From assembly GCF_963506605.1 (NCBI RefSeq), contig NC_083288.1:41044001-41108000 (forward strand): a DNA stretch of 64,000 nt, in the 5' to 3' direction. The notes below the pieces were generated by a model. It did not search any database. It saw nothing but the letters and a program-made list of their open reading frames with translations, and was not told where the DNA came from. This document shows positions 25,336-35,937 of the stretch, in pieces; the stretch's first letter is position 1, and each line of letters opens with the position of its first letter. The position numbers were made by a program, and so were the translations under genes. Source of the stretch: Zootoca vivipara. Its lineage: Eukaryota.

Positions 25336-26015
25336 TTCAAGGGATGTCTTAGTTTTATTACACGTCCAGCCTTGCATCTCCCTTCAAGCCCTCCAGAACT
25401 GCGCCTATCACTATGTCTTATTTTCAGGGTATGGCTTATATTGCGCAAATGCTTAGAAATCCTGCTGTTGCTTATTTTATGGGTATGTCTTATTTTGGGG
25501 TACCTATTCAGGTTGAGTAATATAATACTTTAGGTAATGATATAACAAGGATAGGAAACGAAGCAATATGTAAATATGTAAAGTTAAATTTTGTAAACCA
25601 TCAGACGGGAGGGAGGAAAGTCATTAGGCTCAACTGAGCCAAAGAGATAAAATATGAGGATATGATGTTAGATAATGTGATTATATGTAAAACCAATAAA
25701 TTCTCATGTATATACATATATCCCAGACTCCTGGCAGGACTCATTGACTGATTCCTGCCCTGTGGTCCCCCTTGCTTAAATATATTTTGTCATTTATTCA
25801 TTTAAATAAAGTCAAATGGGGCAGGACCTCCCATTCATGCCAATCATATTTAACTTTGTTTCCATAGAGGCTTCCCACAAATGCTCTAAATTCTACCACC
25901 ACATTTCCTATAGGGTATATAAGGGTTCTTGTCCCACCCCCATTAAGAAATAGGCATCTCTTTAACTTCTCCCCTTTTTCTTCCTTTTCCTCCCAGTAGA
26001 TTCTTAGACGCCACC

Positions 26016-26447
26016 ATGCTGGTCTCTGGCTGCCTGCTGGTTCGCCTGGCCGTCCTTCTCAGCGTCCTCCTGGTGCAGTCCTGCAAAGGGCAGTCTTGGG
26101 AAGCTTTTCAAAACAAGCACATTGATTATCCCCAAACCCGAGCCTCCAACCCCAGTGCCTACTGCAACCTCATGATGGTGAAGAGGAATCTGAATCCGAG
26201 TAGATGCAAACCGAGGAATACTTTCATCAACCATGCCAAGCAGTCTGTCCAAGACGTCTGCGGCAGTGGTGGGAAGCATTGGCAAGATAAATTCTATGAC
26301 AGCATCGAGAACTTCCCCATGATTGACTGCAACTTCACCGATGGTAAACCTCCTAATGACTGCAAATACAAAGGCACAAAGACCTCCAGGCGCATTCGGG
26401 TGACCTGTGAAAACAAGAAGCCTGTTCACCTGGAGAAGGTGCTGTGA
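26016..26447 (+). CDS. RNase A superfamily ribonuclease, copy 1 (non-mammalian 6-Cys type)
   Basis: GCCACCATG Kozak after a polypyrimidine/AG acceptor; signal peptide; mature N-terminal Gln; catalytic His (NKHID), CKPRNTF signature Lys, PVHLE His; six mature Cys; AATAAA at ~26649. Confidence 0.96.
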   Translation: MLVSGCLLVRLAVLLSVLLVQSCKGQSWEAFQNKHIDYPQTRASNPSAYCNLMMVKRNLNPSRCKPRNTFINHAKQSVQDVCGSGGKHWQDKFYDSIENFPMIDCNFTDGKPPNDCKYKGTKTSRRIRVTCENKKPVHLEKVL

Positions 26448-26874
26448 TAGGCAGAAAACCATGCAAGCCATTGAAGCCAGAATGCTTCTTTGGCCATTTC
26501 TCCCTGCAACGCATCCACATCGTTGGCTTTCCCCAGTTTAACAGTCATTTCCCTTTTCCAGGGGACCCTGGGAGCTGTGGCTCTAAGGGCAATGACACCG
26601 GGCTTCTAACTAAGCATTCTGTTGCTTTCTCTCAATGGCTATTCTCTCAATAAAGCTCATTCTATCAAAAGCAAAATGTGTGTCTCTGTGCCTACATTCT
26701 GCCTATGAAGAGCTCAGAAGCTCTTTACGAGTGAAAGCAGGAAATCAGAGAAACTTGTTTTCTCCCCAGAGAGAATTAAGGAAATTAAGGCAAACCTCCC
26801 CAGGGAGAGCATTCCACAAAGAGGGAGCCATCGGAATTCCTTGCGGCAATAATGATCCCCTAAACTAGGAGGTT

Positions 26875-27228
26875 AGGACGCGGGTGGCACTGTGGTCTAA
26901 ACCACTGAACCTAGGGCTTGCCGATTGGAAGGTCAACGGTTCGAATCCCCACGAAGGGGTGAGCTCCCGTTGTTCGGTCTCAGCTTCTGCCAACCTAGCA
27001 GTTCGAAAGCATGTCAAAGTTGCAAGTAGATAAATAGGTACCACTCCGGCGGGAAGGTAAACGGCATTTCTGTGTGCTCCTCTGGTTCACCAGAAGTGGC
27101 TTAGTTATGCTGGCCACATGACACGGAAGCTGTACGCCAGCTCCCTCGGCCAATAAAGCGAGATGAGCGCCACAACCCCAGAGTTGTCCGCGACTGGACC
27201 TAACAGTCAGGGGTCCCTTTACCTTTAA
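26875..27228 (+). mobile_element. Sauria SINE
   Basis: Full-length copy, paralogous to 11430-11780. Confidence 0.88.
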
Positions 27229-27415
27229 ACTAAGGGGTTAAGAGCTTGTGTGAGCTGAGGTACAGATCCCACTTAATATTTTCTGCTGCAAGACTCCTTT
27301 AGGAAGTATGCAGGGAGGTAGCTTTCCTCCCTGCTCTGCATGGATATTTCCTGAGAGGACACCAATTTCTGTTTACAATCCCCTTGGGTTGGGGAGAAGA
27401 ACAGCATGTGGTGTT

Positions 27416-33979: not shown

Positions 33980-34034
<55 letters not shown>

Positions 34035-34205
34035 GTTAGAGGTAGGTAGCCGTGTTGGTCTGCCATAGTCGAAACAAAAAAATATATAAAAAAATTCATT
34101 TCAGTAGCACCTTAGAGACCAAGGTATCTGAAGACCTGTGCATGCACACGAAAGCTCATACCAATGACAAACTTAGTTGGTTTGTAAGGTGCTGCTGGAA
34201 GGAAT
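34035..34205. mobile_element. Penelope-like terminal fragment with a degenerate hammerhead motif (34123-34162, +)
   Basis: GGTAT CTGAAGA CCTGTGCATGCACAC GAAAGCTC ATACC; same flanking motifs (GTAGCCGTGTTGGTCT, CAGTAGCACCTT) as 22709-22926. Confidence 0.68.
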
Positions 34206-35309
34206 AATAATAGGAGGAGGAGGAGGAGGAGGAGGAGGAGGAGGAGGAGGAGGAGGAGGAGGAGGAGGAGTTTCAGAGCAGGCAACAAAATAGCTTGAAT
34301 TAGGTGTATTTAAGAACATATCGGCCCTATCAGATCAGACCTAAAGCCCATCTAGTCCAACATCCTGTTTTTTCAGTGCCCAACCAGATGTTTCCAGGAA
34401 CTGATGGTATTGACAGGCGTTGAAGGAAGAACCATAGTGCAGAGGTAGAACATCTGCTTTGCATGCAGAAGGTCCCTGCTTCTTATCCTGCATTTCCAAG
34501 TGGAAATAACCTTGCCTGTAACTCTGGGGCCTCACCCCACATCAGTGAAGATCATGGTGAGCTGGGTGGACCAAGGGCTTATCTCAGCACATGCTAAGCC
34601 ATACTTGGACTAACATGAAGAGGAGGCAGGATAGAAGAAAAGAAGGAAGACCTGAGAGGAAGTAATGTACTTTTCCAACCAGTAGTTACCTAAAGAGAGG
34701 GAAGAACAGGTTTCCTTTCTATCCATCACGCCCCCCCCCCAATGGTTCAGGTAGAATATTGCAAGCCTTGTCGCTTTAATCCCAACAGGAAGATGAGCCA
34801 GTTTCTCAATGAAAACTACACATACATCCTGCACAAGCTGTGTTTTACAACAACAACAAAAAAATAATACCTAGTCACAGACAGTGTCTCGTACATTCAT
34901 AATCTTGTATATTCCAGTTCTTGTGAAAAAAGAGTTTTATTATGCAGGAGTTCGTTAAAGATTTCCTTAATTCTCTCTGGGGAGAAAACAAGTTTCTCTG
35001 ATTTCCTGCTTTCACTCGTAAAGAGCTTCTGAGCTCTTCATAGGCAGAATGTAGGCACAGAGACACACATTTTGCTTTTGATAGAATGAGCTTTATTGAG
35101 AGAATAGCCATTGAGAGAAAGCAACAGAATGCTTAGTTAGAAGCCCGGCGTCATTGCCCTTAGAGCTACAGCTCCCAGGGTCCCCTGGAAAAGGGAAATG
35201 ACTGTTAAACTGGGGAAAGCCAACGATGTGGATGCGTTGCAGGGAGAAATGGCCAAAGAAGCATTCTGGCTTCAATGGGCAGCGTGTGGCTTGCGTGGTT
35301 TTCTGCCTA

Positions 35310-35741
35310 TTACAGCAGCTTTTCCAGGTGAACGGGCATATTGTTTTGGCAGGCCACACGAATGCGTCTGGAGAACTCTAGGCCTTTGTATTTGCAGTCA
35401 TTAGGAGGTTTACCATCAGTGAAGTTGCAGTCAATCATGGGGAAGTTCTCGATGCTGTCATAGAGATTCTTTTCGTAAGGCTTCCCACCACTGCCGCAGA
35501 CTTCTTGGACAGACTCCTTGGCATGGTTGATGAAAGTATTCCTCGGTTTGCATCTAGTCGGATTCAGCTTCCTCTTCACCATCATGAGGTTGCAGTAGGC
35601 ATTGGGGTTGGGGGCTTGTGTTTTGGGGTAATCAATGTGCTTGTTTTGAAAAGCTTCCCAAGACTGCCCTTCGCAGGACTGCACCAGGAGGACGCTGAGA
35701 AGGATGGCCAGGCGAACCAGCAGGCAGCCAGAGACCAGCAT
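35310..35741 (-). CDS. RNase A superfamily ribonuclease, copy 2
   Basis: Same motifs as copy 1, 143 aa, about 24 amino-acid differences; single coding exon with the same acceptor and Kozak context. Confidence 0.96.
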   Translation of the reverse strand: MLVSGCLLVRLAILLSVLLVQSCEGQSWEAFQNKHIDYPKTQAPNPNAYCNLMMVKRKLNPTRCKPRNTFINHAKESVQEVCGSGGKPYEKNLYDSIENFPMIDCNFTDGKPPNDCKYKGLEFSRRIRVACQNNMPVHLEKLL

Positions 35742-35937
35742 GGTGGCGTCTAAGAATCTACTGGGAGGAAAAAAAGGGGGAAATGTTAAAGAGATGCCTA
35801 TTTCTTGGGAGGGGGGACAGGAACCCTTATACACCTTATATGAAATGTGGTGGAGCATTTATGGGAAGCCTCTATTGAAACTAAGTTAAATATGATTGGA
35901 TGAGACCTGAGATAAACAGCTGCATTCCATCCTGTCT

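What the first reader, a model, noticed from the sequence alone, without database searches (positions are those of the whole stretch)
25838..35900. Convergent RNase A pair whose exons diverged faster than their 3' flanks
Seen: a manual codon alignment gives about 24 amino-acid changes and 8 synonymous changes over 143 codons, clustered in mature-protein patches (HWQDKF/PYEKNL, TKT/LEF, TCENKK/ACQNNM), while about 330 bp of 3' UTR/flank differs by only ~3 substitutions and one ~10-bp indel. The His-Lys-His triad and six Cys are kept in both. Established: RNase A paralogs often diversify for host defence. Inference: accelerated exon evolution after duplication, or gene conversion that homogenised the flanks but not the exon.
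Basis: partly seen in the sequence, partly recalled or inferred. Interest (0 to 1): 0.72.

Follow-up and report, generated by a model that had tools for sequence, protein, structure and literature searches.

The report
Lizard RNase twins, copied except patches
Two facing copies of a lizard ribonuclease gene have nearly identical non-coding ends but differ in three patches of the enzyme, likely because DNA copying between them erased old differences elsewhere, a pattern known from colour-vision genes and debated for monkey ribonucleases.

Summary
The counts are right: 24 of 143 residues, 8 synonymous changes, 3 of 338 bases in the 3' block. The pair is really a whole-gene inverted duplication. 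Promoter, non-coding exon 1 and intron arms differ at 89 of 2869 bases (3.1%), the CDS at 36 of 429 (8.4%). Exon acceleration is not shown: dN 0.088, dS 0.093, and synonymous sites are raised too. Most differences look old. Over residues 26-64 copy A is identical to Lacerta and Podarcis proteins, while B groups with another Podarcis paralog (A+B clade rejected, p=0.015; the whole-protein test is not significant). In 13 of 19 B-side changes the residue already occurs in other squamates (4.8 expected). A and B are closer to each other than to another species in the intron and proximal 3' UTR, which points to gene conversion. The distal 3' block is also conserved between species, so it is a poor yardstick. 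Two patches map to the B2 purine subsite (A: Lys/Thr/Glu; B: Asn/Ala/Gln). Verdict: a new member of a known kind, a divergence peak under conversion. Selection on the patches is inferred, not shown.

The parts
12254..14562 (+). Arm A promoter, exon 1 and start of intron; inverted match to 42864-40802
   Evidence: 50 substitutions in 1885 aligned bases, three blocks
13420..13519 (+). Non-coding exon 1 of gene A (5' end approximate), donor GG|GTAAG
   Evidence: 101-letter loose end of an RNA-type contig at the exon 2 acceptor matches here and at B only, 1 mismatch in 24; donor position
14558..22702 (-). DIRS-like retroelement (RT and tyrosine-recombinase ORFs) in intron A only
   Evidence: Pfam RVT_1 and Phage_integrase; empty site in B; the DIRS label is inferred from the domain set
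22927..23946 (+). Intron arm A, inverted match to 40804-38816
   Evidence: 39 substitutions in 984 aligned bases
25835..25996 (+). 3' end of intron A, homologous to B from 35903 down; old-looking
   Evidence: 13 of 143 bases differ
26016..26447 (+). RNase A CDS, copy A (143 aa, net charge +9)
   Evidence: Pfam RnaseA E=8.8e-27; charge
26133..26189 (+). Divergent patch 1 (codons 40-58); B shares K40, P44, N47, K58 with a Podarcis paralog
26277..26294 (+). Divergent patch 2 (codons 88-93), L4 loop of the B2 subsite; residue 92 equals RNase A Asn71
   Evidence: 8 of 18 nt differ; mapping
26295..26375 (+). Homogenised tract inside the CDS (codons 94-120)
   Evidence: 1 of 81 nt, 0 aa differ; both are 4.0-9.0 aa from the other lacertid groups
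26376..26447 (+). Divergent patch 3 (codons 121-143), includes the Ala109 and Glu111 counterparts
   Evidence: 16 of 72 nt differ
26448..26600 (+). Proximal 3' UTR, homogenised between A and B but not conserved between species
   Evidence: 1 of 129 A-B (26468-26596) vs 12 and 13 of 129 to organism D
26601..26785 (+). Distal 3' block with AATAAA at 26649; identical in A and B and conserved between species to 26759; ends where A lacks about 1.19 kb present downstream of B
   Evidence: 0 of 185 A-B; 1 of 159 and 0 of 105 to organisms B and D; junction
26788..27225 (+). Downstream arm (110 bp plus SINE), inverted match to 33771-33334
   Evidence: 8 of 110 and 43 of 328 differ; the SINE figure lies in the range of unrelated copies
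34961..35309 (-). 3' block of gene B
   Evidence: RNA reads cover it
35310..35741 (-). RNase A CDS, copy B (143 aa, net charge +6), transcribed
   Evidence: Pfam RnaseA E=6.4e-27; RNA reads and a 649-nt B-type contig
41438..41540 (-). Non-coding exon 1 of gene B (5' end approximate)
38816..42864 (-). Arm B intron, exon 1 and promoter

Best explanation
These are two intact RNase A genes from an inverted whole-gene duplication that likely predates the split from other lacertids; gene conversion has likely homogenised promoter, intron, signal peptide, mid-exon and 3' UTR, while three exon patches kept their older differences, probably because selection favours two enzyme variants. Shown: the mosaic of 0-44% local divergence; paralogs closer than another species in intron and proximal UTR; orthologs closer than paralogs over residues 26-64 and 88-93. 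Inferred: that conversion is the cause, helped by the inverted arrangement 9 kb apart; that selection, not drift, protects the patches; that the variants differ at the B2 purine subsite and in charge. The distal 3' block is additionally under constraint.
For: (1) dS is raised with dN: 8/105 overall and 6/40 in codons 88-143 vs 89/2869 upstream, p=0.02 and 0.0016. Only 5 of 37 CDS-plus-stop differences are CpG transitions. (2) Residues 26-64, a fixed third: A is identical to L. agilis P0010 and P. lilfordi P0012, B groups with the Podarcis P0006 type (SH-aLRT 93; 88/86 on 15 rows); AU rejects A+B, p=0.015 (3 identical rows of 18 dropped). (3) 13 of 19 B-side residues occur in the 19 comparison sequences, 4.8 expected, p=2e-5. 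(4) At 5 of the 8 synonymous sites, those listed in the 40 rows shown of 183, the B letter occurs in other organisms; at 3 of these both letters do. (5) A and B share states that differ from other lacertids: I97, synonymous 26045 and 26198; A also has the P0006-type Q79 and N114. (6) Intron: 20 of 535 A-B vs 50 of about 608 to organism B, p=0.002; proximal UTR 1 of 129 vs 12 of 129. (7) In organism D two 407-nt contigs, one with a 129-nt diverged core, begin and end at the same places, as expected if its paralogs also share their ends. (8) Sites 92, 130 and 132 equal RNase A Asn71, Ala109 and Glu111, named as B2 determinants in PMC6794472; all 3 differ, p=0.006 if sites were independent.
Against: AU tests on the whole mature protein (p=0.335) and on the last third (p=0.655, where the constrained tree was better) do not reject an A+B clade; the middle third gives A+B with support 46. 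B has residues seen in none of the 19 comparison sequences at 6 of 19 sites (88, 91, 121, 123, 132, 135), so part of patches 2 and 3 arose in B. dN/dS near 1 gives no direct sign of positive selection. The patches lie in columns that vary across squamates, and the paper notes high L4 variability in reptiles, so the B2 overlap may be tolerance. The segment trees were cut after seeing the differences. Synteny in other species could not be checked. N106, which looked private in the protein set, is also present in organism C.
Confidence: 0.62

Rival explanations
1. Old duplication with conversion, but the patches persist neutrally: once diverged, mismatches block further conversion, and they lie in tolerant loops.
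For: dN about equals dS; patch columns vary across squamates; the intron 3' end, non-coding, is also 13 of 143 diverged, so unselected islands exist in this locus.
Against: An 81-nt homogenised tract sits between patches 2 and 3 with no indel to stop it; the patch 1 distinction is kept in three Podarcis species too; all 3 B2 determinant sites differ.
Confidence: 0.17
2. A recent (about 3%) whole-gene duplication, after which exon patches of B were imported by conversion from an older third paralog that was later deleted.
For: Upstream arm blocks are fairly uniform at 1.4-4.2%; relic pieces of the unit remain at 3061-3394 (90% to B's intron; 7 matches genome-wide) and 9502-12212; other lacertids have 2-5 listed copies.
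Against: No donor exon in this assembly: the next DNA match is 70%, and none in 20 kb left of the window. The intron 3' end (9%) and downstream 110 bp (7%) also look old.
Confidence: 0.12
3. One reading: a recent duplication followed by accelerated, positively selected change in the exon.
For: Non-synonymous sites 28/325 vs 3.1% upstream, p=1e-5; 6 B-private residues against 2 A-private mature ones (76, 122).
Against: Synonymous sites are raised equally; 13 of 19 changes would have to be parallel or reverse changes to residues present elsewhere; A+B is rejected for residues 26-64.
Confidence: 0.09

Closest known systems
Colobine monkey RNASE1 duplicates (PMC3924837, section 4 part 1 of 2 read)
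   Same: [quoted passage not shown]
   Different: A lizard lineage with an inverted pair whose full genomic context is in hand; changes fall in the B2 subsite; no enzyme data; both copies stay cationic.
Human red and green opsin divergence peak (PMC3924837 passages)
   Same: Paralogs closer than orthologs in non-coding parts, orthologs closer than paralogs in a coding peak.
   Different: Three short peaks within one exon, separated by tracts of 75-81 nt; the functional residues are predicted, not measured.
Iguana iguana pancreatic RNase (RNAS1_IGUIG, P0026)
   Same: 58% identical to B, colinear at the sites mapped, same triad; B keeps its Y-E-x-N-L loop, Asn67 and Ala105.
   Different: Iguana enzyme has net charge -2 against +9 and +6; reported pancreatic, active and not antimicrobial (passages); A replaces the Asn71 counterpart by Lys, B replaces the Glu111 counterpart by Gln.

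Membership tests
RNase A superfamily | Pfam RnaseA domain above cut-off | tested here: met
   94.4 and 94.8 bits against cut-off 23.1
RNase A superfamily | His-Lys-His triad and CKXXNTF signature | tested here: met
   H35, K65, H138 align with iguana H10, K40, H113 and with bovine RNase A; CKPRNTF in both; signature as written in PMC6794472
RNase A superfamily | Non-mammalian form: three disulfides, short L4 loop without the Cys65-Cys72 pair | tested here: met
   Six mature Cys and a 3-residue gap against bovine L4; the disulfides themselves were not observed
RNase A superfamily | Non-coding exon 1 and whole CDS in exon 2 (feature recalled, from no call) | tested here: met
   Loose end of an RNA-type contig of organism C maps to 13493-13516 and 41441-41464 before a GT donor; no exon 1-exon 2 joint was among the 15 of 180 joints shown
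RNase A superfamily | Ribonucleolytic activity | not testable with these tools
   needs recombinant protein
Divergence peak under gene conversion (opsin type) | Paralogs closer than orthologs in non-coding flanks | tested here: met
   Intron 20/535 vs 50/608; proximal UTR 1/129 vs 12/129
Divergence peak under gene conversion (opsin type) | Orthologs closer than paralogs inside the peak | tested here: met
   Residues 27-62: A is 0.7-1.0 aa from A-type orthologs, 6 from B; 88-93: 0 from L. agilis, 6 from B; AU p=0.015 for 26-64. Not shown for the last third
Divergence peak under gene conversion (opsin type) | Both copies at syntenic positions in other species | not testable with these tools
   no other lizard genome is held
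Divergence peak under gene conversion (opsin type) | Functional difference maintained by selection at the peak | tested here: inconclusive
   B2 sites differ but dN/dS is about 1; no assay
Positively selected paralog pair (accelerated exon) | dN significantly above dS | tested here: not met
   dN/dS 0.92-1.05; Fisher p 0.31-0.59 for the whole CDS, no segment below 0.4
Host-defence RNase | Antimicrobial activity or leukocyte expression | not testable with these tools
   cationic (pI 9.4 and 9.1); tissue of the RNA runs not given

The most novel reading that the evidence does not exclude
Lacertid lizards keep two or more ancient RNase specificities as B2-subsite cassettes that selection shields from conversion, while promoter, signal peptide and 3' end are overwritten anew in each species, next to a nearly invariant 160-bp element at the poly(A) site: an independent reptile replay of the colobine RNASE1 case that could be settled by synteny.
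Probability: 0.3. Interest if true: 0.6.

Novelty: new member of a known kind. Interest (0 to 1): 0.42.

Why it matters
It shows how 'exon faster than flank' can arise with no acceleration: old coding differences survive while the flanks are reset, and part of the flank is constrained. The same ambiguity was left open for colobine RNASE1 for lack of genomic data in the 2011 review read here. Lacertids offer several assembled genomes with 2-5 copies each, so the question is directly testable there. The patches also give a concrete enzyme prediction, a changed 3'-purine preference. Seven literature searches (listings only, except three papers) showed no title or abstract start on these lacertid paralogs; the library lacks most subscription journals.

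Tried and rejected
Assembly or polishing artefact: rejected, since both types and the collapsed 3' block appear in another sample and B-type transcripts exist. Donor paralog in this genome: none, next DNA match 70%. CpG hypermutation as the cause of high dS: 5 of 37 differences. Structured RNA in the conserved 3' block: 1 Rfam match, 13.9 bits against gathering 40, E=0.54, taken as chance. SINE divergence as a clock: 43 of 328, within the 7-13% between unrelated copies, so uninformative. AlphaFold model of B: mean pLDDT 47.7, unusable, no fold search run. AU tests: whole mature p=0.335, last third p=0.655; the first third failed with identical rows and was rerun on 15 of 18 rows. YN00 failed on 4 of 5 segments. 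The 50% representative search (437 hits) added no close lacertid sequence beyond P0007. No RNA holder was listed by the run index. A/B expression ratio was not estimated, because A-type reads may fall under the 85% cut on B. A hint that organism B holds both A-type and B-type intron ends rests on one contig bridging by only 25 letters and was not counted. Earlier findings near this place: none.
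Full report
Observation. The two ORFs are 143-aa RNase A proteins, A at 26016-26447 (+) and B at 35741-35310 (-). They differ at 24 of 143 residues and 36 of 429 nt, 28 non-synonymous and 8 synonymous. After the stop, 3 of 338 aligned bases differ, plus an 11-bp indel. The triad and six mature Cys are kept. The genome is a lizard's: the nearest named proteins are Lacerta agilis (90% to A) and Zootoca vivipara (97% to B). The pair lies in a cluster holding 15 of the genome's 16 matches, on contig C13. 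No third close copy of the exon exists; the next DNA match is 70%.

Self-comparison gives inverted arms 12254-14562 plus 22927-23946 against 42864-38816, with 89 substitutions in 2869 aligned bases (3.1%). An RNA-type contig of organism C has a 101-letter loose end at the exon 2 acceptor. It maps to 13493-13516 and 41441-41464 only, just before a GT donor. So the arms are promoter, non-coding exon 1 and intron. A DIRS-like element of about 8 kb sits in A's intron only. The 3' block ends where A lacks about 1.19 kb that lies downstream of B; homology then resumes for 438 bp.

Divergence is a mosaic: intron 3' end 13/143; 5' UTR and signal 2/97; codons 27-62 8/108; 63-87 2/75; 88-93 8/18; 94-120 1/81; 121-stop 16/72; proximal UTR 3/153; distal block 0/185. 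The clustering in the mature CDS exceeds codon permutation in 3 of 4 statistics (p=0.008, 0.008, 0.023; longest run p=0.24).

No acceleration. dN is 0.088 and dS 0.093 (NG86); dN/dS is 0.92-1.05 by three methods, and no segment has pN above pS at p<0.3. Synonymous sites exceed the upstream arm as well (8/105, p=0.02; codons 88-143 6/40, p=0.0016). Positive selection on a young copy would raise dN alone. CpG transitions explain 5 of 37 differences.

Most differences look old. B shares K40, P44, N47, K58, L93 and L142 with the Podarcis P0006-type paralogs, and Y89, N92, L93, A130 and N134 with iguanian RNases. Of 19 sites that a recent-duplication model must place on B, 13 carry a residue already seen among 19 comparison sequences; 4.8 are expected (p=2e-5). 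With the mature protein cut in fixed thirds, A is identical to L. agilis P0010 and P. lilfordi P0012 over residues 26-64 while B joins the P0006 type; an A+B clade is rejected there (p=0.015; 15 of 18 rows). Against this: the test is not significant for the whole protein (p=0.335) or the last third (p=0.655), and 6 of the 19 residues are private to B. At DNA level, 5 of the 8 synonymous sites appear in the 40 rows shown (of 183); the B letter occurs in other organisms at all 5, and both letters at 3. The two signal-peptide differences appear polymorphic: the A-type contig of sample X2 carries the B letters.

Homogenisation. A and B share I97 and two synonymous letters that differ in the other organisms covering them, and A carries P0006-type Q79 and N114, which suggests exchange in both directions. 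Over codons 94-120 they are identical in protein but 4-9 residues from other lacertid groups. In the intron A-B is 20/535 against 50 of about 608 to organism B (p=0.002); in the proximal UTR 1/129 against 12 and 13 of 129 to organism D. Organism D shows two 407-nt contigs with the same start and end, one with a 129-nt diverged core; organism B shows its 3' block at depth 26 against 10-15 for CDS contigs. Both fit the same pattern in other species, though contig depth is not a copy number.

The 3' yardstick is biased. Bases 26601-26759, around AATAAA at 26649, differ from A at 1 of 159 in organism B and 0 of 105 (depth 2.6) in organism D, against about 8% in the intron (p=1e-4). Both foreign contigs stop matching at 26759, which argues against contamination. 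So the distal half is likely constrained, and only the proximal half needs conversion. Rfam gives nothing credible.

Expression. RNA reads of two samples cover B on the expected strand. At sites 35338-35348, run X21 shows 0 of 25-28 reads with A letters and X22 2 of 2; at 35374 X22 shows 1 of 5. Both types are thus seen, at low depth, in unnamed tissue. Reads carry the A letter at 35167 in 19 of 19 and 16 of 18, so one of the three 3' differences is not fixed.

What the patches would do. Alignment to bovine and iguana RNase maps residue 92 to iguana Asn67, which PMC6794472 equates with RNase A Asn71, and 130 and 132 to Ala109 and Glu111. The paper names these as main B2 purine-site residues. 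A has Lys/Thr/Glu, B has Asn/Ala/Gln, iguana Asn/Ala/Glu. The counterparts of the pyrimidine-site residues (T69, D104; role recalled) are unchanged. Net charge is +9 for A and +6 for B. I therefore predict different 3'-purine preference or efficiency. The same paper notes that L4 is variable in reptiles, so this is a hypothesis. A structure model failed.

Comparison. PMC3924837 (passages and section 4 part 1) describes this signature for red and green opsins, and for colobine RNASE1 duplicates, whose non-coding parts are less diverged than the CDS and whose history it calls unresolved. PMC5964141 (passages) and PMC6794472 (passages) report iguana RNase as pancreatic, active and without antimicrobial activity, so host defence should not be assumed. 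Seven searches listed no paper on these lacertid genes.

Verdict. A real and well-supported mosaic, best read as an old duplication under gene conversion with protected coding patches. The conversion part is fairly secure (about 0.9 across the first three explanations); selection on the patches is likely but unproven. New member of a known kind; interest 0.42.

Noticed in passing
window 26601-26759 and 34987-35145: About 160 bp around and past the poly(A) signal is almost invariant between lizard species (1 of 159, 0 of 105) while intron and CDS differ by 8-12%; possible regulatory element, no Rfam family.
   Followed up: partly
window 14558-22702: Young-looking DIRS-like element with long open ORFs (645, 245, 440, 304, 169 aa) and repeats 99.1-99.7% alike, inserted in the intron of gene A; the 169-aa ORF at 15776-16285 and the 645-aa ORF have no Pfam match.
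   Followed up: partly
window 27408-31997: 4.6-kb TG...CA insertion with a 5-bp target duplication in the spacer, holding a 1044-aa Copia-type integrase and RT ORF; no direct LTR pair, but a perfect 95-bp inverted repeat at 27416-27510 and 27840-27934.
   Followed up: partly
window 9502-12212: Third copy of the spacer and downstream flank without a gene; the segment between two inverted SINEs is flipped relative to the 26788-34122 copy, as SINE-SINE recombination would give.
   Followed up: partly
window 1831-3394: Low-copy relics of B's intron (90% and 81%; 7 matches genome-wide), possibly left by a lost paralog.
   Followed up: partly
window 26761-26800: The junction of A's 1.19-kb loss carries a repeated 8-mer, as templated end joining can leave.
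   Followed up: no
G000:C13:40.82-41.16 Mb; L003-L016: Cluster of 15 RNase A matches with other close pairs (L004/L005; L008/L009/L010/L014); L016 seems to lack the signature motif, and L015 on C15 has a C-terminal extension.
   Followed up: no
window 59826-60323 (-): C-type lectin exon fragment (Pfam Lectin_C, E=1e-4), with related pieces near 46843-47534.
   Followed up: no
window 36270-38526: LTR-like insertion in B's intron with 220-bp direct repeats (87%); organism B contigs show little cover over 37271-38077.
   Followed up: no
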